The translations under genes and the position numbers were made by a program. The notes beneath the pieces were generated by a model. The model had not been told where the DNA came from, did no database searches, and saw only the letters and a program-made list of their open reading frames with translations. A stretch of DNA of 63,743 nt, the filler included, from Kipferlia bialata (Eukaryota), in NCBI GenBank assembly GCA_003568945.1. It is 3 parts of 3 records of this genome, joined end to end, with 100 filler letters (N's around TTAATTAATTAA, not from the genome) between each part and the next. Parts side by side here need not be neighbours in the genome. Positions count along the whole stretch, not along the records: positions 26,293 to 52,477 come from BDIP01000194.1; 2 more parts are not named here. The stretch is one strand, 5' to 3'. Shown piece after piece: positions 27,075 through 63,100 of this stretch (its first letter is position 1; every line of letters starts with the position of its first letter).

Positions 27075-27328
27075 ATGGAGCCAGAGAACACCCACGACGT
27101 CTATGCGACGTTGCGGCACTGCGTGGAGCTTGCGCAGAAGGATGTACGTAGCAGTGTGTGCTAGAATGTGTGTGTGTCTTCACTATCTCCTTGTTTATGA
27201 GTGTCTCTCTGATACCCAGAAGATCAAGGCTGCCAACTCATGGTCCCTGCCCCTGACTGAGCTGCTGGATGGTATCCTGGAGGAGTCCAACTCCTCTCCC
27301 ATCCAGCAGTTCCAGATGGCCACCCAAG
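27075..27328 (+). CDS. NCAPH: Condensin I kleisin CAP-H/Brn1/Barren, first two exons (27075-27143, 27220-27328)
   Basis: YATLRHCVELAQKD|KIKAANSWSLPLTELL...FQMATQG matches the kleisin N-terminal pattern C..LA..NKI...N.W.L.L...FQ.A. Truncated at the poly-C run near 27357. Confidence 0.7.
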
Positions 27329-27359
27329 GTAATACACCCTCTCTCTCTCTGTAACCTCC

Positions 27360-27402
<43 letters not shown>

Positions 27403-27690
27403 AGGGGGCCCCCCCCCCCCCCCCCCCCCCATCTACCTTCGTATATATGATATTATATGCATAGAGTAGTGGTGCTGATCAGTCCCCTCCCTTCCCCTTG
27501 TCACTGGAGGCCACGGGAATACATTGTGTGAACATATACATGTACCTATACACGTACTCTCTCTGTTTCTCTCTCTTACACTCAGACCATTTGTGTCACT
27601 AGACTCACATAGTGTGGATAGGTTTTCTTCCCAATATTAACCTCCCCCCCTCCCCCCCTCTCTCTCCCTTCTCTCTCTACTTATCCTCAG

Positions 27691-28043
27691 ACCATCTATG
27701 TCACTGGAGGCCACGGGTATTGGTGACGCTGGTGAGGTGAGGGGTGGGGAGTGTATCAACCCTGTTGCTGGTGAGGATAGAGAGGGTGGGATAGGGAGAG
27801 AGGCTGTTGTCACTGGGGACGAGGCATCACCACCGGAGCCAGACGCAGTCGCAGGTATGCGTTGTACTCTCACACTCTCATTCATCTCATATTCTCTTTC
27901 ACTTCCCCTCTCTCTCATCTTCTGACACTGTCAATGTAGACCTTCCCTCCCGACTCTCAGTCTCTCTCTCTCTCTCCCTCCCCTCTCTCTCACATATATT
28001 TACTTTAGACACAGTGAATGTGGACCTTGCCATCCAGCAGACG

Positions 28044-28080
<37 letters not shown>

Positions 28081-30533
28081 ACTATAGACACAGCCAACGT
28101 TGACCTTGCCATCCAGCAGATGGTCGAGAGGCGTGTCTCCCTCCTTGTCATGTACACTGCACTCGGTACTGTCTTGTCCCTAGCAGTGGTAATTGGGGCA
28201 TTAGTAGGTACAGTACTTCATGAATATAGTAGTATATATATATATCTAGAGTGTCCCTCCTTATCATGTACACTGCACTGGGCACTTTCCTATCATTGGC
28301 TGTAGTAATAGGGGCACTAGTAGGTCTGACATGCAATATATAGGATTATATGAATAGACATATATATATTGACCCTCCCCCAGTTGCCGTTGAGTTGCCG
28401 TTTCCATGAGTACCATCCATGCATGTCTCTCTCTCTCTCTCTCTCTCTCCCCCTACCTATATACTCATCCCAGTTGTGGTTGCCCTGAGCACCATCTATG
28501 CCATCGCACCCCTCATAGTGGGGCTCATAGGTACTCTCTCCCCCGTTACATATGTCATACTTTATAGATACAACTATGAATTTATCGGCCTTTTCAATAG
28601 TGTCAGGACACCCTTATAGTGGGGCTCATAGGTATACATATTCTCTCTATCTCTCTCTCTCTCTCTCTTTCACTCTCTCTCTATCTCTCATCTCTTAGGT
28701 GTCTTGTCCTTCCGAGCCTTGAACAGACGTCTCCTCATGATCTCCCTCTATGCCGCTCTGGCAGTCACACTCTTCTGCTGCTATCTCGCGGTGTTCTACC
28801 TGGCACTGATAGTGGTCACACTGGCATCCAACGATGGCACTAGGTAAGGGTACTGTATATACTGTATATACTGTATATACTGTGCTACATATTCTATATA
28901 TACTATGTCAGTACATACTGAATACCTTGCACTCATTGTGGTCACACTGGCCTCTAACGATGGGACTAGGTATGTTTACCATTTATGCATTGCCTATACC
29001 ATACTATATATTACTCACGGTCACGCTAGCCTCTTATGACATGACTAGGTGTAATATATATATATATACTCCATTCCAACTGTCAGCGTGTTCATATCTG
29101 TACACATTACTATACTTGTCTATTAGTGTAAGCTGACACCCAGCCTAGAGCTCTCCTCCATAATGATTTGTACAATATTTACAGTCATAAATATACCTAT
29201 ACCATATATATGTATACGTATATGTACTGTATACCTTGCACTCATCGTGGTCACACTGGCCTCTAACGATGGTACTAGGTATAGTGTACTGTACACACAT
29301 ATATCAATAGTTTAGGTTAGTAGTATATAGTATGTTTGAATATATACTAACTATCAGCCTAGAGCTCTCCTCCATCATCGGTGTGGCCGTTGGGTTTGGA
29401 TCTATGGCACTCATGCTCTGTCAGCTACTGTTAACTCAGGTATATATGGGATTAAAGGGGATATATATACGATTATGGTATTAACATATCTGTATGCTAT
29501 GTATATATATGGAGCACTTGTTGGGTTTGGGTCCATGGCACTCATGCTGTGCCAATTACAATTGACACAGGTAGTATTTACACACGCATTGTGAGTTGAT
29601 TAAGAGTTGAGCATACATTTAGCTCTGTCACCTGTCAACACATCATTATGTACATATTGATATATGCATGTCTGCCCAATCTCTCTCTGTATGCTTACCC
29701 CTCAGATCACCATTGTCGCTCTGTACCCTGGTGCCACGAGACTGGTCCCACTCTCTAGGTATGTCATATGTGTATATATACATATATACTATGTATACTA
29801 CTTGTATAATACTCTCACTCTGTTGCCACCAGACTGGTCCCACTCTCAAGGTATGTCCCTCTCACACACACTATGTCTCTATCACTCACTCTTTGTGTCT
29901 GTCTGCTCTTTATCTATACCTTCTTATCTCAGATGCCCCAGAGCCATCACCCTCTGTGCTGCCCCACTCATCGTGCCACACAGTACGTGTATATAGGAAT
30001 ATGAACATTCATGTATTTTACTATATTCTATGTATATACTGCCCCAGACCCTAAAGCAGAGGACTGCCCCCGGGAGACTACCTATCTCTCTCTCTCTCCA
30101 GATATATGTTTGTATGTATGTAGTAGACTATACTACCCCCAGACCCCAAGGCCGAGGACTGCCCCCGTGAGACTGCCCTGGATGTACCCCTGGTACTCAC
30201 CTGTGAGAGGGAGAGGGAGAGAGAGTGGAGGAGTGGGTCCAGGTATTTGTTTTAGTGTTTTAGTATTTGTCTCTGTAATGGGTATTCTTATACGAGTGTA
30301 TACACATTTGTCTCACTAATCCCCCAGGGCCAGTGGCATGGGTGCATCTGCCAGGGCATAATCACTATATGTTTGTACATATTTTTAGTATATACATAGA
30401 GTGTATGTATACCAATCATTACAGTTATACCTTACCCCCCAGGGCCAGTGGCAGAGGTCAATCTGCCAGGGCACAGGAGACACGGCATAGGTACAGCGCT
30501 CTCATTCTATTCCTTCTTATCCTTACACAGCAC

Positions 30534-30572
<39 letters not shown>

Positions 30573-30929
30573 CCATAGCCCATACTCTGTCCCTTGGTGT
30601 TTCCTCATCACAGTTATAGAGAACTGACACCATACTATATAAATAGATCTATGAATGTGTACATATATACATATATAATGTAACCGATATACTATACTCA
30701 CCACAGTAGAGAACTGCCTGACACTATCCACCCTAGGGTGGGTGTGGGTAACACACAGACAGAGAGGGCAGAGACTGTGGAGAGAGAGGGAGAAGGGGAG
30801 GGAGAGAGAGAGGCAGAGGCAGAGCAGGCATCTGATAGTACCTCCAGTGAGTCTGAGAGTATATTCAGTCTGAATGCAGAGTCAGACACAGAGGTGAGTA
30901 TATATAATGTAATTGTAATTATATATAAG

Positions 30930-30960
<31 letters not shown>

Positions 30961-31454
30961 ACATACATATACGTATGTATTTGAGAGTGTGTTCAGTCTG
31001 AATGCAGAGTCAGACACAGAGGTATATATATATGTGTATATACATACTACTACAAATACTATCGGCTCTTTGCTTATGATCTTGATACCTAAGATGTATG
31101 TTTGGCCTCAATGCAGAGTCAGACCCGTTTCTTTCGATAATACCGTTAATTTTTTTAACCTACAGACCCAGAGATATCTCCTCCTCTCTCTGTTGAGTCT
31201 CTCTAGAACCTCAATTTTGTCTTTCCTCTCTCTATGGACCCTCTTTTCACTCTCCATAGACCCTCTTTTCACCCTCAGGCTGATGGAGAGGGAGGCAGGT
31301 CACCCACTGAGGCTGAGAGGAACACCCACGTGGTCACAGCTTGTCACATTGCTACTCGGTACGAATAGTCACAGTTATGTCTGTCTGCAATTCTCTCTCT
31401 CTCTCTCTCCCTCTACACCCTTATATCAGCATTCCCCCTGGTGAGTGTGTCCTG

Positions 31455-31490
<36 letters not shown>

Positions 31491-33551
31491 TACACCCTTA
31501 TTCCAGCATTCCCCCCGGTGAGCCTGTCCTGGGTCTTAGTGTGCAGGTGTCCAGGATAGTCCTCGAGGCAAGGTAAATACATATATATATACACACCTTC
31601 ATATATGTATATATATATATATGAATAATTCAACACATTCGAAGTGTGCAGGTGTCCAGGATAGTCCTCGAGTCAAGGTATATTTGTATATAGCCACATA
31701 CATTTATGCTCATATCTCTCTCTATATATATATGAGTAATTGAACTCGTAGTGTCTCCAGGTGTCCAGGATAGTCATTGACTCAAGGTATATACATATGT
31801 ATACACCTTTGTGTTCATATATAGAAGTATATGAAGTACCAATACATTCGAAGTGTTCAAATGTCCAGGATAGTCCTTGAGTCAAGGTATACATGTATAC
31901 ACTCACACACTCAATTTTTCACGTATGTAAATGTATATAAGTATAATGTCTATACATCCTATCGTAGTGTCCAGGATAGTGTTGGAGTCAAGGTGGGTCA
32001 GTATTTGTATGTATAGTCAAGGTGCTAACCCTTAAGGGAACAAGAGCGCCAGGCCGCCCTCTTTATCAGCATGGACCCAGTTGGCAAGGGGAGGATCACA
32101 CACAGGGACAGGAGGAAGGGGTGTATAGGTACAGTAGTATAGTGTATATATATAGTATACAGTGTATAGTATATATCATGGACCTAGTTGGCAAGGGGAG
32201 GATCACACACAGAGACAGGAGGAAGGGGTGTATAGGTATACTAGTATAGTATATATAGTATATATAGTATATAGTGTATAGTATATGTGGTATGGACCCA
32301 GTTGGCAAGGGGAGGATCACACACAGAGACAGGAGGAAGGGGTGCATAGGTATAGAGTATAAATAGAGTATAGTATTTATACTATATACTAGTATTACCT
32401 CTCTAACAGTAGGTGTTGCCCGTATGCCCAATGGATACTATGTGTGCTATAAATACTATATACTAAAAACTATAATATATATATATTATACACTATACGC
32501 TGCACTAACTCCAGGTGTTGCCCGTATGCCCAATGGAGAGAACTGGTCACCCATCGATGAGGAGCAGGAGTCTAGGTATATGATATAGATATTTAGTATA
32601 TACGTATATATACATGTATAGTGTAATAATGCTAGTGTACTTGTTCTATGTATACATTATGAACTGGTCACCCATCGATGAGTAGTCTAGGTGTATGATA
32701 TCATATGTATTCATATACAGAAGCATATATGTATACATTAGTGATCTGTCTACCGTTATTCCTTTCTCTATGCATGTGCTTGTGATTCTATCTATAACCA
32801 TACATGTCTTCTCACCCCAGACTGGCCAGGAACAGACTCAGGGGGGCACATCACGAGGTGGGTGGATGCAAGACGAACACATAGTCTTTTGTATCCATAT
32901 ACATTTGTGTATCACTATAAATTGTTAATATGCCTGCGCATACTTTTTGAATCTGTGACTGACCACTTAGGCCTATGAGCGCCGTCTGGCCAACCACGAC
33001 ATCGGCCCTGAGGTATGTACTCTCTCTCTCTCTCTCTCCTCCTCTAATTATATATATATATATATATATATCCCTTTACACCCTTAATGCACAGGCCTAT
33101 GGCAGCAGTGCCATCATGACTGCTGGTCTTTGCACCCCTGGGGCGTCATTTCGATATGCCTCGACCGTAGAGGTACCAATATATATATATATATAAATGC
33201 ACCATACTATATAGGTAATTATATCATGTTGACCCTCGTTGACTCTGTCTGACCACCTTAGAATGACGTTGCCGTTGACTGTGCCAGTCCTAATAGGTCA
33301 AGGGGGGAGAGCATGCCACCACCCAACACTAAGCAGGTATTGTTATATATATTAGTATAGATAAGATACATACATTCACACATATATGTATATATATATA
33401 TAGTTTTCTAGAGAGCATGCCACCACCCAACACAAAGCAGGTATACACACACTATATGTAAGCAGGTACTAAGATATATATATACCTGCGCACCATCATG
33501 TGTATATGTTCACAAATGACTGACTCCTAGGTCCGCATGCCCCGAGAGTAG
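27691..33551 (+). CDS. Hypothetical multi-pass membrane protein with long hydrophilic C-terminus (about 20 short exons)
   Basis: Exons encode hydrophobic segments (VSLLVMYTALGTVLSLAVVIGALV; IYAIAPLIVGLIG; LLMISLYAALAVTLFCCYLAVFYLALIVVTLA; IIGVAVGFGSMALMLCQLLLTQITIVALY), then a charged low-complexity region. Last exon VRMPRE-stop at 33551. Confidence 0.6.
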
Positions 33552-33595: not shown

Positions 33596-33971
33596 TCCAT
33601 CCCCTCTGACTTATCCTGTACCCATATATAATTGAATAGACCCAGATCCCAGAGAATTTTACGCTATGAATACACAATGTACATATGTGAGTTAGTATCT
33701 TCTGCTTGCTATAGTACTTGAGAGTAGGTCTAGATGTCACAAATTCCTTATTGTATGAATGAGGGGAGATGCAGACAGAGAATACATTTGGTAGGTCAAG
33801 TTGCTGATGTGAGTGAATTCCAATCAGATAGTTTGTGACGAATCGAACAATAGTCTGTAATGGAATGGTTTGGGTCCAATCGGAGAGTTTGGTTTCAATA
33901 ATTGAAACATCTATTTAGAAGTGCAATTGCACCAAATCAAGATCCTTTACAACCCTTAGACCTCGTACGCT

Positions 33972-34393
33972 TGAACACCAAGCTCCCCGCTCAAGAACTG
34001 AGATTCCCGCTCGAACACCAAACTCCCCGCTCGGAGACAAAGCTACCCGCTCAAACACCAAACTCCCCCGCCTTGGAGACTAAACTCCCCGCGCGTAGAC
34101 TAAACTCCCCGCTTGAACACCAAACTCCCCGCTCTAAAACTAAACTTCCCGCGCGTAGACTTAACTTTCCGCGCGTAGACTTATCTCCCCGCTCGAGGTC
34201 CAAACTCCCCGCTCGGAGTCTAAACTCCCCGGGGCCCGGGGAGTATAGACTTTACTCCCCGCACGTAGACTTAACTTCCCGCTCGAACACCAAACTATTC
34301 GCTCGGAGACTAAACTTCCCGCTCGGAGACTAAACTTTCCCCTGGAACACCAAACTCCCAGCTCCCAGACTAAACTCTTCGCCTGGAGACTAA
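33972..34393. repeat. GC-rich minisatellite, ~20-nt unit AAACTCCCCGCTCG(GAGACT/AACACC), about 20 degenerate copies
   Basis: Visible tandem units such as AAACTCCCCGCTCGGAGAC, AAACTCCCCGCGCGTAGACT and AAACTTCCCGCTCGGAGACT. Confidence 0.9.
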
Positions 34394-35893
34394 GCCGTCC
34401 GATACTGTGCTCTCCGCTAGTACCCATGGTGTGGGTACACGAGCAGAGAGAGTTTTAGATATGTTGATGTTTTGCGGCTTATACGAGAAAGTTTGGTAAC
34501 GTAACAGAGAGTTTGTTTTCTTACAGACTTGACACTGAAGGAATTCGACAACATGCTTCTATTAAATAGTGACAAATGCATCTGTCACTTTGCTACTTGA
34601 ACGCTGTCCGATTGCCACGATTATCGTGGCCCACGATACATCGCTCCTGGAGGAAGACTCATACTATTAGCCGGTGCCGCTGAGCATGAGCACGTCCAAT
34701 GTTGATACATACAGTACCTACGATACAATATGTGTGAACTTGAAGTACAGGATGTACAAATTGTACAGTACAATATACTGTATTTAAATATCATACATGA
34801 TTTTATGAATATCAATCATTATTTATCGAATTACATACTCGTGCACAGTAATTGTTAGGACTCTAGCTATATGTGACATATAGCCTATATGTCACGTCGC
34901 TTCAAAACCTCTGGTTACTACTCGCAGTCGCCAGTAGCCCTGTGCATACCGATCAAGACACATCCAGTAACACACGTTGCGCAACCAGGCAAGTATCCCA
35001 CCATGAACACTTCGTGTGACACACGAGAATATACAGACACACCCACTGTATAGACAAAAACCGTCCTCTCTACGCCGTCTCCCCAAGTGGTGAATACAAC
35101 ATACCTCTCATTAGAGAGCACAACCATCTAATTTCCCTGCTCGTACTTACAACAGCCTCGGTAGGGGGGGGAGGGGGTACCTAGAAGTGTTGAGTCGGGG
35201 GAGAAAAATGGAGCGGTCCCACACTGAGCTCCAGTGGATTATTCTAAATCCACCTGGAAGTTAGGTCCCCGAACCGAAGTTGCATATCATATGGGGCTCG
35301 TGACGCACAACATGCACGACTACAGAACTCCAAAGGCTGTTTGTTAGACAGTACTAGGCGCCTTGTATCATATGTCATATATATACTAGCAGATCATTCA
35401 CATCATCTTCGTTTGAAGTGTCTGCCAGCATTATCCGTGCCTCTGCAGCCGTGCGTCTCGCTCGCCATTCTACTCGCCAGGTCATGGTTTCGAGGTCCAG
35501 ACAATCCCAACAGAAGTTAACTGGCCCGGCGCGTCTACAAAGAATGCACATTTGCCCCGATGAAGGGCTCTCTGGACCAACATAGATGACACACACACGC
35601 AGGTTCTGTGGAGTGTTGATGCCAAACCTTCGGGAGTATCCAAAACAGTGAGGACAATGTTGCCGTCCACATGTATCTCCATTAGAATCACCGTAGAGGT
35701 ATAGGTGAAGTCCAGGACACGGTGCCCTAATACTACAACTCGTCTGAAGTCTATTGGCACCGAGCGGCTAGTATTGAGTTCATTCACACCAATTACACTA
35801 GTAACATACTTGAGAAGCATGTATATATTGAATAAAGACTAAGCTTATAGTGAAGGCGGAGCTGAAAAGTCCAAAGAGAACATGATCCCTTCT

Positions 35894-38366
35894 TGCACGA
35901 CTTTTCCCACATACCGATAGTGCACGACTATTCCTGGACATCAACAGAGCACGACTGTTCCAACATATACCAATATTATAGATACTCTATTACTTCTGTA
36001 GGGTCACTGGACGTGATTGGACCATAGATACTGAAGTACTTGGGCTGGGGTGGGGGGGGCCAAAGCCTCTCAGCCTTCTCAGCCTCCAGTCTCACAGTCT
36101 CTCAGCCTCTGCTCTCACAGTCTCTGCTCTCACAGCTAACCATCTCTCAGTCTCAAGTCTCTCAGCCTCAAGCCTCTCAGCCTCTACCCTCTAAGCCTGC
36201 AGTCTCTCAGCCTTTACTATCTCGGCCTCAAGCCTCTCAGCCTCAGCTTTCTCGGCAGCAAGTCTCTCAGCCTCAGCCTTCTCAGCAGCAAGTCTCTCAG
36301 CCTGCTAGGGTCAGAAACAAGGGTCATCACAAATATGCACTACTATATTCTGGTTATAGGGGCAATACTATTATTGCCCCTATAAGTTATAGGGCCTATA
36401 ACCAGTATCAGTATCAGTGTCAGTATTGTTATTGTATGAGGGGGGGTCTACCTTAGTAGTATATAGTCTATAGTCTAGTGCACGACTTTTCCTGCACAAA
36501 TAATGAAAGTGCACTACTATTCTGGTTATAGGTAAGACATATGGGAATCTACCTCAGCTACAGCCCCCTTCTGAGTGGTCTCCTTGGACATGGCAGGGGC
36601 TGCGTCGGCCTATCAGTCAGGGGGGTATAATAAGATTGTTTTCCAGTGCACGACTTTTCCTGCACACAAATGGGAGCGTGTATACAAACCTCTGAGGCTG
36701 AGGGGAACACAGAATGGTCTAGCAAGGATGATCCATCACCACTGGGGGGATGGTATAGTGTCATGGATTCCTCAATATCAGTATCTTCCCTATATACAGG
36801 GGGCGAAGCACTGGATGAGCATTCCCAACCCAAAACCTCTTCAGGGAAGACAATGCACGCCTCTCCTCTGAGCTCCTGGGCTGGTACTACGTCGGCCTAT
36901 CTGTCGGCGGGGAGAGATAAAAGAGGATCATAAAAGAGGATCATACTGGCCTGTGTGTGTGTGTGATGTCAATACCTTCTCAGCAGCGACCATCTTTGCC
37001 TTTCTCTTGGCCTTCTTAACGACACAGGGTATGTCCAGTCAAACAGGCTGTCGTGTGTGCTGTTTGTGTATATGTGGGAAAGAGAGGTCAGTGAGATCGG
37101 CGACAAATCTTATTTACTTAAGGATTAATCTCCATTATTTTTGTTGACTCCTAACGACTATTGGTTTAGTGTATGTGAGAAAAGTCGTTCACTATTGTTG
37201 TGGAAATAGTCGTGCACTATTTGTATGTCGGAAGAGTTGTGCATTGTCTCTATCCTAAATGATACCAGTTAACAGATGCTGCTTCCCACTCTCCTGAATC
37301 CCCAGTGGCATCACCTTCCCAGTGCTAGTAGGATTCAAGGCCTGGTAGGGGCATTCCCCCTGTTCCTGTCCTGGACGGTATGTACTCGTGGAACGTGGGT
37401 AAATTGGGCCCTAGGTGCCTGCCCACACCCCCTGCCCCCACGGCCATCACGGGTCTGTTCTCTATGTTCTGGGACTGCCTGCTTGTCTGAAGGTACTGTT
37501 GCACCTGCTGTATACCCTGTTGCATCTGCTGTGGGGGGGCCTGGTACTGCTGGGGCATCTGCCCTTTCTGCATCCGCTGGGGGTGTGGATTGGGTTGTGC
37601 CTGGTGTTCCTGTCCCTGTCCCTGGGGGTAGGACATCCGCAGTGTCTGCTGGGGCCCATGGTCAGGGGCAGGGTGACCCAGGGTGGGTATGCACTATTAT
37701 TCTGTGAGAATAGTCGTGCACTACTGTGCGGGAAAAGTCGTGCACTATACAGCACCTGTGTACTGTGACATATACTCGAGCAGTGCATACGTACCTGAAA
37801 CGTCGTCCCCCACTCTGCGTCATGAGGTTCGTTCTCACCAGCTTGAAACCGGTTAAACACCGCAAGTGGGATGGGCTCCCCTGCGAACTGCCCAAGAGGA
37901 GCCCTGCGCGTTTCGGGAATGTACCACGTTGTCTGAATATCAGGGAAGGAAATCAACGAATATACTGGCCTGGAACTAATGCGGAGTACCTGTACCCTTC
38001 TATGTCGGCATCGCCTTCAAAGGCAAGAGGGAGAGCCAGGGTTTCGGACATTAAGAATGAAGGAGGTTCCACTAATCCCTTTAAGTCCCTCCCTAGGTCA
38101 GACGGGTCTACCATATTGTTTTCCCAGATATATCCCACGTGAATAGTATCTCCTCGGTGCTTATGATGGTTACTGATACTAGTGCAGCTGGTAAAGACGC
38201 TCTACAACGCAGCATTCTTTTGAATTTCGCCTTAATATATACTTGATATTGGTTTAGTAGGGTATGTGAGAAAAGTCGTGCACCATTTGTGTGTGCGAAA
38301 AGTCGTGCACACTTTTGTGTGTGAGAAAAGTCGTGCACCCTTTGTGTGTGGGTAAAGTCGTGCACC
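35894..38366. repeat. Dispersed motif GTGCACGACTWTT / AAWAGTCGTGCAC, about 14 copies, including four tandem ~27-nt units at 38265-38366
   Basis: Forward copies near 35894, 35920, 35948, 36478, 36509, 36646. Reverse copies near 37180, 37205, 37709, 37733, 38271, 38298, 38326, 38353. Confidence 0.85.
36060..36305 (-). pseudogene. Degenerate (K)AEAERLAAE coiled-coil repeat exon
   Basis: After the acceptor CTGACCCTAG the minus strand reads QAERLAAEKAEAERLAAEKAEAERLEAEIVKAERLQA-stop, and the repeat pattern continues past the stop. Confidence 0.4.
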
Positions 38367-38506
38367 GTATATATATGTACGCCACCGCGCGGCCCAACCC
38401 CCATTCCACTACTACCAAGCCTGCCCCAAGAGTTACCGGGATCTACTGGGGACAGACATATATAATTTGGTATAACAACTACTGACCACGGTTTCTGTTA
38501 CAGAGT

Positions 38507-60170: not shown

Positions 60171-63100
60171 ATCATATGTATACTAGAATGTATTCTGACC
60201 CAGGGAGTCTGACCTCCTCCTCCAAGCGTAAGCATACAAAGTACATAAGTATTTCTCTATATGTATTCATATGAGGAATATGTATACATAGTATGAGTCT
60301 ATGTAGTCTCATCTCAGGGAGTACAGTCTGACCTCCTCCTCCAAGGACTGTGTCTATGTCAAGTTCAGAAGCTCATACTCGAGGTAGACATTATATAGTA
60401 TGTATGTATATAAATACATGTATATATTGACTAATGCGAGGTATTATACTTAATGTCATATAGTATACGTATATAGACTATATGCACTGTGTCTCGGTCA
60501 AGTTCAGAAGCTCATACTCGAGGTATAGTACTGTATGTATCTTGTGTATTTACAGAGAGATACTAAAGAGTATATGTATAGTGTATATGTAAGTATCTCA
60601 AGTTCAGAAGCTAATACTCGAGGTAGATAGTATATTGCACTTGTATATTGTATATAATTATGTATTTATATAATAATGTATTTATACATAGACTAATGCA
60701 CAGCTACTCTGAGTACAGACAAACTACAGCTTACTTGTTGGGAGACTGCCCCCCCCCCCCCTTCCCTTATCTGACCCCAGCATGTATGGCTCCCACGGTG
60801 ACTTCCAGTGCGACTGGGCTGCAGGTATGAGTATCAGTATAGTATATTATAGTATTTATATATGGTATCTATATATCTATAGACTAATCTGCAGCTGGTG
60901 CCTTCACCCCCCAGACCACCCTGTCAGGCACCTTTGGACCAGAGGACTATGACATCAACAGGTACGTGACACGGCTGGTATAGATAGTGTGTGATATAGG
61001 TTTAGTACGGATAGTATTTGTGTACACAATGCATACATAATTATATAGGTATATATATAGATTCGAACCAGAGGACTATGACATCAACAAGTACGTGACA
61101 GATATATATACAATACATACACACATATGTCTATATCTATAGAGAGAGAGAGAGAGAGATTCGGACCAGAGGACTATGACATCAACAAGTACGTTTATAT
61201 ACGTGTATGTATATATGTGTGTGTTTATATATATGCACTAGCATTGTATGGAGAGACGGTATTATTATTTCTCCCTCACCTCAGGTACGAGAAGTATGTC
61301 GTGCACCCCGGTGACATGGCCTCGGCCAATGTGACATGCACCGGCAAGATGAACCAGAGCAGTGACGAGTTTGAGGTAATAGTCTCATACACACAGGAAT
61401 ATGAAATGATTCTCATTACACTTGAACGTATATGCATGACTTCGGGTACTTATACGTGTCCTAGAAGATGAACCAGAGCAGCGACGAGTTTGAGGTACAA
61501 ACAATGTATATGCGTCTATATAGGAAGTGTCTATCACTCTCACATATTACTATGTATCTATAAATAACTATATATATCTATGTAACTATATATATATCCA
61601 ACTCTGCCCCTCTCACTCCCAGCTCTACAAGGCCTCATGTGATAGCAGTCACGACACATCACAGGCCACTCTGGTGGTGTCAGCTGATAGGGAGATCAGG
61701 TATAATTCACATATGTGTTAGACATGTATATTCATATAGCCTACATATATGTGTATGATATTCACTACACTATACTCTCAAGTCAAAGGGAGATCAGGTA
61801 TAGAGAGTATACTATACACATGAGTGCAACTAGTAGAGTATCACACTACTATACACTAGTTTCTGTGCTGATAGGGAGATCAGGTATACAATTATGAGTG
61901 TACCTGAGGTCATATACTACACACTACACTACTCGACTACCCTCTGACTTCAGTATCGATGAGTCCCTAACCTTTGAGGGTTCCCTCAACTGCTTCTATG
62001 TCATATGGAGGACCAAGAACAACAGCTACAGAGACTACGGCAACCTACCCACCTGCACCTACCAGGCAAGGGACTCCAGTATTAGTATCAGTATATACAG
62101 ATATATAGATATATGTAGCTACTGATACTTCCAGGCGGTGGACTCCAATGGCAACACCAGTGACTCTGAAGACGACAACGGTGACGACGACGACACCAGT
62201 GACCCAATCGACCCTAGTGACATCAACCCAATGTTCCTGCTCGTAGGTACCTAATGTATCAACTGTATCTACTGTATATGGAATGCTACCCTCTCTCTGT
62301 TAGATAGAACATATATATACAGTACATATATACTTCTTGATCCACATATATAGATGGATCCGGTGTTCTTGGTGGCTGGTAGGAGCCATGGACTGTGTCC
62401 CAAGGTCCCAACAATCCCATATACACATTATATATACATTCGGGTGTGTGTATACTATTACTTTCTTCTATGGTTCCTGATAGCAAGTACGTACAAACAT
62501 CCAGATACATACACATATATACATGTTTATAGCACTTAACACGCCACATCACTCTTGTTTCTCATCCCAGGCGGTCTCCTCGTCCTGTGCATTCTCCTCA
62601 GCATATGCGTCTGTGTGTGTAACAAGCATGAGGAGGAGGAGGAGGAGGGGGAGGAGGAGGAGGAGGAGAGTGTACAGTGCGTGAGTCACTCCCCTAGTAT
62701 ACCTAGTATGCCTAGTATGCCTAGTATGCCTGGTGTCCAGACTGGGGTTACTGCCACTCAGCCATCTGGTGTGGCCATGTCACCAATGGGTAACATGTCA
62801 CAAGTGACAACAGGCATGGGTACAATGGGTGGGCAGGTGAGAACAATGTCCAGATACACAGGGTAGACATCTCTCTCACGCAGAGTATCCGCCTCAACCT
62901 GACCACAGTAAGACTTCTTCTCCAGCCTCTCTCACCCCTGTTATGTTGAACTCCTTCTCTCTCTCTCTCCCCCTCCTTTACCCCCAGTTGACCCCTGCCA
63001 TGTTATACTCTTTCTCTCTCTCTCTCTCTCCCCTCTCCTCCCTTACCCCCAGCTGACCCCTGCCATGCTGGACTCCATGTCCTCCCAGCAGCTCCAGATG

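What the first reader, a model, noticed from the sequence alone, without database searches (positions are those of the whole stretch)
28797..29439. Interleaved echo order A, A', A'', B', A''', B gives a mechanistic clue
After exon A (ends 28843) come echoes A' (28923-28969) and A'' (about 29014-29048). Next is a start-of-exon-B echo with acceptor (CAG|CCTAGAGCTCTCCTCCAT, about 29141-29161), then another A echo (29232-29278, synonymous changes only), then the real exon B (29358). A whole [A end + intron + B start] unit therefore occurs twice with dissimilar intron bodies. This fits insertion of a homologous segment from a diverged allele better than simple slippage. B'...A''' also forms a pseudo-exon with both splice sites that must be skipped.
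Basis: partly seen in the sequence, partly recalled or inferred. Interest (0 to 1): 0.7.

Follow-up and report, generated by a model that had tools for sequence, protein, structure and literature searches.

The report
Introns stacked from other alleles' junctions
Two-thirds of the introns examined in this protist's DNA hold spliced-out copies of the neighbouring exon ends that differ from the working exons mostly at silent letters, so they likely came from diverged versions of the same gene during DNA repair rather than from simple stuttering.

Summary
The echo order A, A', A'', B', A''', B is real. It fills one 514-nt intron of a membrane-protein gene (record named Kipferlia bialata), and one spliced contig joins A straight to B. 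The pattern is window-wide: 66 of 102 modelled introns hold 117 such echoes, each adding about 105 nt, the length of a plain intron. In non-LRR genes echoes differ from exons five times more at silent than at amino-acid-changing sites (ratio 0.21; simulated ordinary duplication 0.56-0.66). Echoes differ from each other in the same way, and they keep splice signals while their intron flanks are barely alignable. Likely mechanism: break repair copying about 100 nt from a diverged allele, then end-joining. This intron is the only one of 12 mixed introns with an acceptor echo before a donor echo; its pseudo-exon is in frame and stop-free. No donor allele was observed. The scan noted similar echoes in a sea-urchin gene, where the silent bias was explained neutrally; that null fails here. 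No paper describing this was found.

The parts
27698..33551 (+). Host gene, 19 annotated coding exons, 516-aa protein P0001 with a hydrophobic block at about residues 69-194 and no Pfam family; probably lacks its true 5' exon in this window
   Evidence: (spliced contig has 111 letters upstream that are not in the window)
28699..28843 (+). Exon A (exon 4), working copy, donor GTAAGG
   Evidence: spliced contig matches with 0 other letters
28844..29357 (+). 514-nt GT-AG intron removed in one piece; holds all four echoes
   Evidence: joint 'skips 514, GT..AG'
28923..28969 (+). Donor echo A': last 47 nt of exon A plus GT, 6 synonymous differences
29014..29048 (+). Donor echo A'', older or more diverged (VTLASYDMT for VTLASNDGT), followed by GT
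29049..29143 (+). Complete intron core 1 (95 nt): GT ... branch motif CTGAC ... CAG
29144..29161 (+). Acceptor echo B': first 18 nt of exon B, identical
29144..29278 (+). Pseudo-exon B'-spacer-A''' with both splice sites: 135 nt, in frame, stop-free; spacer 23% GC against 58% in exons; skipped in the one spliced contig
29232..29278 (+). Donor echo A''': same outer breakpoint as A', 6 synonymous differences from A and 2 from A'
29279..29357 (+). Complete intron core 2 (79 nt): GT ... branch motif CTAAC ... CAG; its acceptor is the one used
29358..29439 (+). Exon B (exon 5), working copy
19168..19562 (+). Informative array in another gene: exon end plus three donor echoes. Two spacers are 61 of 63 identical, yet the exon differs from the matching echo at 4 of 55 letters, all at third positions in the modelled frame

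Best explanation
This intron is a stack of exon-intron junction pieces that likely came from diverged, working alleles of the same gene. Shown: the echoes, their silent-site bias, their kept splice signals with barely alignable intron flanks, the step of about 105 nt, the donor-then-acceptor order, and splicing from the outermost donor to the outermost acceptor. Inferred mechanism: a double-strand break near a junction is repaired when one end invades a homolog whose exon still pairs but whose intron does not. It copies about 30 nt of exon and about 70 nt of intron, and is then end-joined to the other broken end instead of re-annealing. Selection would keep only products that leave a whole exon and splice site on the outside, so the leftover lies inside the intron. 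Arrays with a shared breakpoint (A' and A''') would grow by unequal crossing-over between an echo and the exon end of another allele. The interleaved order here would arise when an acceptor-side event brought in about 200 nt of an allele whose intron already held a donor echo. This creates a pseudo-exon, likely tolerated because it is mostly skipped and keeps the frame.
For: Non-LRR echo against exon: 0-fold 57 of 1442, 4-fold 72 of 389, ratio 0.21, P=1e-6 against 0.5; one echo per family 0.22, P=9e-5. Stable at 0.17-0.23 under 4 strict settings. Simulated in-place copies through the same detector give 0.56-0.66. Echo against echo: 0.27 non-LRR and 0.36 overall, where 1 is expected. Echo-private changes are also silent-biased (shorter branch 0.42, P=0.011). 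For the 29 echoes at most 5% diverged (22 mismatches in 876 nt) the adjoining 35 intron letters are only 63% alike (null 54-57%); 1 of 79 flanks reaches 90%. Flanks are homologous but worn: 21 of 79 have p<0.05. GT kept in 47 of 50 and AG in 33 of 41 aligned ends; branch motif kept in 21 of 27 with the wobble letter changed in 14 of 21, background 41 of 757. Slope 104.8 nt per echo, r=0.83; plain introns median 103.5 nt. Array at 19168-19562: spacers 97% alike while the exon differs at 4 silent sites, so fast intron decay cannot explain that case. The exon-A search returned only P0001, so no paralogous donor was found (the tool calls a blank weak evidence). Context from PMC8516963 (passages): Fornicata examined lost Rad51A, have two Dmc1 paralogs, and metamonads lack Ku. 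PMC8682777 (abstract): Dmc1 tolerates mismatches. PMC7368036 (passages): invasion, extension and end-joining yield tandem duplications.
Against: No donor allele was seen. The DNA run shows no other letters on 26900-29720, so the roughly 20% silent diversity and the sex or ploidy that the model needs are inferred. The two LRR genes give 0.52, which fits ordinary duplication. Taken alone, non-LRR acceptor echoes (0.38, P=0.2), G4 (0.47) and G2 (P=0.065) do not reject 0.5. The shorter echo branch in non-LRR genes is not significant (6 against 4 changes, P=0.13). Lenient scoring (mismatch -1) gave 0.74-0.84, but it also hits 143 of 658 and 325 of 667 unrelated pairs. Flank identity does not track exon-part divergence (rho 0.05), although deeper alleles should have worse flanks. 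No sign of AT-rich microhomology at outer edges (0.457 against 0.445). Five of seven gene models are hand-made and unchecked against annotation. The presence of Pol theta in this species was not checked.
Confidence: 0.55

Rival explanations
1. Copy in place first, swap later. Each echo starts as an exact tandem duplication from the sister chromatid. Later allelic recombination (echo with another allele's exon end, or conversion of the exon) brings in silent differences and a foreign intron.
For: Needs only known steps. Shared outer boundaries in 17 of 55 echo pairs show arrays growing from one seed. The 19168-19562 array has near-identical spacers with a silent-diverged exon.
Against: Nearly every echo would need the second step: only 1 of 79 exon/echo flanks and 1 of 55 echo/echo flanks reach 90% identity.
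Confidence: 0.2
2. Echoes are under selection now. They are translated in minor isoforms or act as conserved splicing elements, staying frozen while the exon drifts at silent sites.
For: Low amino-acid divergence (4% of 0-fold sites). The one pseudo-exon is in frame and stop-free, about 0.29 x 1/3 by chance.
Against: Almost all echoes lack the partner splice site. 7 of 117 carry stop codons and some carry indels. Both echoes of a pair carry silent-biased private changes. The spliced contig matches the working exons with 0 other letters and skips 6 detected donor and acceptor echoes upstream plus this stack. There is no excess of branch motifs at donor-echo ends (5 against 4 of 47).
Confidence: 0.12
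3. Ordinary slippage or tandem duplication. The echo decays neutrally, only the exon is protected, and TA-rich intron bodies mutate several times faster.
For: Fits the LRR genes (0.52). Introns are microsatellite-rich. An earlier AI note explained a sea-urchin case this way (e1-9861148; unchecked).
Against: Predicts a ratio of 0.56-0.66 and at least 0.5 between echoes; observed 0.21 and 0.27. All six silent in A against A' has P about 0.01. Branch motifs survive beyond neutral expectation (P=0.002 or less under the two decay levels assumed).
Confidence: 0.08
4. Assembly artefact: haplotypes of a mixed or heterozygous culture were concatenated.
For: A string of allele pieces is what such an error would look like. 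The window has an apparent misjoin at the poly-C near 27350-27440. No listed DNA contig spans the finding's own intron.
Against: Single DNA contigs run through exon and echo without a difference (27443-27948, 28089-28410, 28464-28632), and no alternative letters appear. Run X1 holds 0.97 of 469 sampled words of 27000-31500. X1 may be the window's own source, so this tests assembly logic and is not an independent sample.
Confidence: 0.05

Closest known systems
Human F7 intron 7 37-bp VNTR spanning the exon 7 donor (PMC1557585, abstract read)
   Same: Copies of exon end plus donor lie behind the real donor and stay silent; the most upstream donor is used.
   Different: One locus of repeats with identical donor sites. 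Here two-thirds of introns carry echoes, acceptors are echoed too (the last one is used), flanks are barely alignable and differences are silent-biased.
Tandem duplication by strand invasion, extension and polymerase-theta end-joining in BRCA1-deficient C. elegans (PMC7368036, passages)
   Same: Proposed geometry: one extended break end is joined to the other end, leaving a head-to-tail copy.
   Different: There the template is the sister chromatid and most copies are about 10-20 kb. Here the unit is about 100 nt, the copies are not identical, and a diverged homolog is inferred as template.
Intron gain by tandem duplication of coding sequence with a proto-splice site (PMC2891723, abstract; 'Rogers model' is a recalled name, also in an AI note)
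   Same: Local duplication of exon sequence turns one copy into intron.
   Different: No new intron position arises here; existing introns lengthen. Only the pseudo-exon could become a new exon.
Sea-urchin exon echoes noted earlier by this scan (e1-7787398, e1-9861148; AI notes, not checked by me)
   Same: Dead copies of exon-intron junctions inside introns, with some silent bias.
   Different: There about one exon end in six, in one gene, explained by protection of the exon alone. That null is rejected here for non-LRR genes.

Membership tests
Ordinary tandem duplication of a splice junction (F7 IVS7 type) | Head-to-tail copies of exon end plus splice site inside the intron | tested here: met
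   117 echoes in 66 of 102 introns
Ordinary tandem duplication of a splice junction (F7 IVS7 type) | Intron part of the unit copied as faithfully as the exon part | tested here: not met
   Exon part 97.5% and flank 63% alike in the 29 closest echoes; 1 of 79 flanks at 90% or more
Ordinary tandem duplication of a splice junction (F7 IVS7 type) | Neutral decay of the copy (0-fold/4-fold ratio at least 0.5) | tested here: not met
   0.21 in non-LRR genes against 0.56-0.66 simulated; met in LRR genes, 0.52
Ordinary tandem duplication of a splice junction (F7 IVS7 type) | Outermost donor used, copies silent | tested here: met
   One spliced contig uses the outermost sites across five junctions
Invasion plus end-joining tandem duplication (TMEJ type) | Microhomology or templated insertion at the new junction | tested here: inconclusive
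   No AT excess at outer edges; true microhomology needs the donor sequence
Invasion plus end-joining tandem duplication (TMEJ type) | Dependence on polymerase theta and a recombinase | not testable with these tools
   No genome held; no genetics
Invasion plus end-joining tandem duplication (TMEJ type) | Sister chromatid as template (identical copy) | tested here: not met
   Silent-biased differences and worn flanks
Duplicated, alternatively spliced or mutually exclusive exons | Each copy has both splice sites | tested here: not met
   Only 1 acceptor-then-donor adjacency among 183 gaps
Duplicated, alternatively spliced or mutually exclusive exons | Inclusion seen in RNA | tested here: inconclusive
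   One low-depth contig (4.74) skips the pseudo-exon; contigs drop rare forms
Introner or transposon insertion with target-site duplication (features recalled) | Inserted bodies form a repeat family | tested here: not met
   Intron starts and ends from different introns are 54-57% alike at the median; only 35-nt ends compared, within this window
Recursive or nested splicing through AG|GT points | Branch motif before the echo's final AG more often than before exon ends | tested here: not met
   5 against 4 of 47

The most novel reading that the evidence does not exclude
Kipferlia's introns are a genome-wide archive of other alleles. A repair system without Rad51A and Ku that relies on mismatch-tolerant Dmc1 keeps pasting junction pieces of about 100 nt from strongly diverged homologs into most introns. 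One clonal genome then records past coding alleles, hidden sex and very high diversity, the spliceosome must pick outermost sites, and rare interleaved events such as this one are a route to new in-frame exons.
Probability: 0.4. Interest if true: 0.87.

Novelty: new variant of a known kind. Interest (0 to 1): 0.72.

Why it matters
If the window is typical, tens of thousands of introns are involved (the species' draft paper counts 124,912 introns; PMC5874029, passages). That would be an unnoticed main source of intron length. It would also give indirect evidence for recombination between very diverged lineages, readable from a single genome, and a natural test of what loss of Rad51A and Ku does to genome architecture. 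A short-intron protist with a reduced spliceosome (87 of 174 proteins; PMC6679479, passages) that ignores nearer, intact splice sites is a direct test case for exon definition. The near-absence of acceptor-then-donor order (11 of 12 sorted, 3.8 expected) fits that, although the copying geometry alone also predicts it.

Tried and rejected
No whole genome is held, so no genome-wide count was possible. The run search listed no holder on record as RNA; X2 is a guessed RNA run whose contigs skip GT-AG introns. Reads were laid on 26900-29720 only, so echoes downstream and in other genes are untested in RNA. No X2 contig lies on 28895-29274 and no listed X1 contig spans the finding's intron; the tool says such holes prove nothing. 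Two metagenome scans found no relative: 0 of 597 pattern matches for P0001 and 0 of 178 for the S19e exon. The homolog search with a lysine-rich exon of the 14.9-19.2 kb gene found nothing among 7995 scored. Atlas look-alikes for P0001 residues 55-225 were all under 0.9, so no family is named. Programmed DNA deletion between exon and echo: no such joint in the DNA contigs; the one X1 joint listed (29220 to 29491, ends TA..TC, side 20) joins TA-rich repeats and was set aside. RIP-like or AT-biased decay as the source of third-position bias: the 4-fold spectrum is mixed (C>T 16, C>G 12, G>C 8, T>A 7 of 72) and the bias holds for each of the four bases; an AT-biased simulation still gives 0.56-0.59. 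Recursive splicing is not supported. Echo age does not follow position (nearest 0.10, farthest 0.13, P=0.15). One of 118 hits (28636-28682, CT repeat) was dropped before all counts from then on. Literature: nine searches, among them Kipferlia+intron (33 papers, 25 listed) and Kipferlia+exon (16 papers, 14 listed), seen as listings; none showed this pattern. In PMC5874029 and PMC6679479 'duplicat' occurs 0 times in the main text. Supplements were not read, and most subscription journals are not searched.

Full report
Observation. All four echoes are at the stated places. A' (28923-28969) and A''' (29232-29278) each match the last 47 nt of exon A at 41 letters, and all six differences are synonymous in the frame YLALIVVTLASNDGT. 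They differ from each other at two letters, also synonymous. B' with its CAG is 21 of 21 identical to the start of exon B. A'' is more worn, with 20 of 30 letters matching A and two amino-acid changes. Two complete intron cores, each with GT, a CTNAC branch motif and CAG, lie at the same exon position (95 and 79 nt) and match at only 52 of 95 letters with many gaps.

Gene and splicing. Exon A translates identically to part of a 516-aa record that its source names hypothetical protein KIPB_001384 of Kipferlia bialata, the only hit among 34 candidates. That protein maps exactly onto 19 GT-AG exons at 27698-33551, with one 514-nt intron between A and B. One spliced contig of run X2 (depth 4.74) joins 28843 to 29358 and matches five working exons with no other letter. 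The main message therefore uses the first donor and the last acceptor. The protein has a hydrophobic block near residues 69-194 and no Pfam family.

Is it real DNA? Three contigs of run X1 each pass through an exon and its echoes without a difference, upstream of the finding, and X1 holds 0.97 of the sampled words of 27000-31500. No listed contig spans the finding's own intron, X1 may be the window's own source, and there are no long reads. I put an artefact at about 5%.

The pattern is window-wide. I used seven gene models with 102 introns (two acceptors adjusted). P0001's model comes from the record; the LRR model matched record P0002 in 23 of 23 exons; the other five are hand-made open chains. 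The regions 21-27 kb, 33.6-39.5 kb and 52.6-58.8 kb were not modelled, and the middle of the repeat list was cut from view. A codon-blind local aligner found 118 hits, of which one CT-repeat hit was dropped. The 117 echoes lie in 66 of 102 introns; the false-hit rate was 8 of 1254. Median echo length is 29 nt. Each echo adds 104.8 nt (r=0.83), close to the 103.5-nt median of echo-free introns, and spacers between like echoes are never under 29 nt.

Key test. If a junction is copied in place and only the exon stays protected, amino-acid-changing sites should differ about half as often as silent sites; simulation through the same detector gave 0.56-0.66. In the non-LRR genes the observed ratio is 0.21 (57 of 1442 against 72 of 389; P=1e-6 against 0.5), with a bootstrap over families of 0.13-0.36. 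Two dead copies should differ evenly, but the echo-against-echo ratio is 0.27 (26 of 417 against 26 of 114). Results that do not support this: the LRR genes give 0.52; acceptor echoes, G4 and G2 are not significant alone; lenient scoring gives 0.74-0.84 but hits 22-49% of unrelated pairs.

The intron side tells the same story. Beside the 29 echoes that are at most 5% diverged, the next 35 intron letters are 63% alike, against 54-57% for unrelated introns. Yet GT survives in 47 of 50 and AG in 33 of 41 aligned ends. The branch motif survives in 21 of 27 while its wobble letter has changed in 14 of 21. That is how two working versions of one intron differ, not how a dead copy decays. Fast slippage in TA-rich DNA could loosen flanks, so this point alone is not decisive. 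In the array at 19168-19562, however, two spacers are 61 of 63 identical while the exon differs from the matching echo at four silent letters.

What is special here. In 11 of 12 introns that hold both kinds, all donor echoes come before all acceptor echoes (3.8 expected by random order, P=5e-6). This intron is the exception. Its acceptor-then-donor pair makes a 135-nt pseudo-exon that is in frame and stop-free; shuffles of the spacer are stop-free in 29% of cases, so about 10% by chance together with the frame. The spacer is intron-like (23% GC) and the one spliced contig skips it. A' and A''' begin at the same letter and share upstream letters, and the spacers before A'' and A''' share an 11-letter match. 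I read these as allelic versions of one earlier echo, so the intron strings together three or four versions of the junction (inference).

Mechanism (inferred). One end of a break invades a homolog through the exon, the only part that still pairs. It copies about 100 nt across the splice site and is end-joined to the other end. Selection keeps products with an intact outer exon and splice site. The same geometry with a sister template is proposed for tandem duplications in C. elegans (PMC7368036, passages). PMC8516963 (passages) reports that the Fornicata examined lost Rad51A and have two Dmc1 paralogs and that metamonads lack Ku; PMC8682777 (abstract) reports that Dmc1 tolerates mismatches. 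The link to the echoes is my hypothesis. Unexplained: flank identity does not track exon divergence, no donor allele is visible, two metagenome scans found no relative, and edges show no AT excess.

Known kinds and novelty. It works like the F7 intron 7 repeat (PMC1557585, abstract) in that copied donors stay silent, but it fails that kind's features of faithful flanks and neutral decay. Nine literature searches showed no description for this organism (listings only, except passages of PMC5874029, PMC6679479, PMC8516963, PMC2812944, PMC3488318 and PMC7368036, the methods section of PMC5874029, and abstracts of PMC1557585, PMC8682777 and PMC2891723; no supplements read). The scan's earlier notes hold none for this genome and two on a sea-urchin gene.

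Verdict. Observation confirmed and first reading supported. Diverged-allele repair 0.55; copy in place then allelic swap 0.20; functional echoes 0.12; ordinary duplication 0.08; artefact 0.05. New variant of a known kind; interest 0.72.

Noticed in passing
window 27077-27440: Start of a condensin subunit 2 (Cnd2/CAP-H)-like gene (weak Pfam hit, E=0.033, below cut-off). Its spliced contig continues into sequence absent from the window, DNA contigs stop on either side of the poly-C, and P0001's contig has upstream letters absent from the window. Likely a misjoin or gap at the poly-C run.
   Followed up: partly
window 26193-26292 and 52478-52577: N runs around the 12-letter linker TTAATTAATTAA: the window is separate pieces joined artificially.
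   Followed up: yes
window 51795-52000, minus strand: Acceptor echoes before the first modelled exon of the LRR gene read LDLRMNTIT and LDLRKNTIT where the working exon reads LDLRTDTFT, so the echoes look closer to the usual LRR motif (motif recalled; read by eye).
   Followed up: no
window 40192-51795, minus strand: LRR gene whose 23 modelled exons are all phase 0 and mostly 26-30 codons; its introns hold up to five echoes each.
   Followed up: partly
window 13400-13900, minus strand: Ribosomal protein S19e gene (E=5.8e-42); by eye its introns are short and echo-free and the first appears to split the ATG. Highly expressed genes may lack echoes.
   Followed up: no
window 62065-62067: One modelled intron starts with GC instead of GT.
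   Followed up: no
window 14800-14870, 19630-19710, 5060-5150, 12085-12122: Further long poly-C or poly-T runs sit where gene models start or stop in mid-frame; they may be more assembly joins.
   Followed up: no
window 33960-34400: Degenerate tandem repeat of about 19 nt rich in AAACTCCCCGC downstream of the host gene (by eye).
   Followed up: no
window 35960-38400: Dispersed short motif GTGCACGACT(A/T)TT recurring in intergenic DNA on both strands, a possible promoter element (by eye).
   Followed up: no
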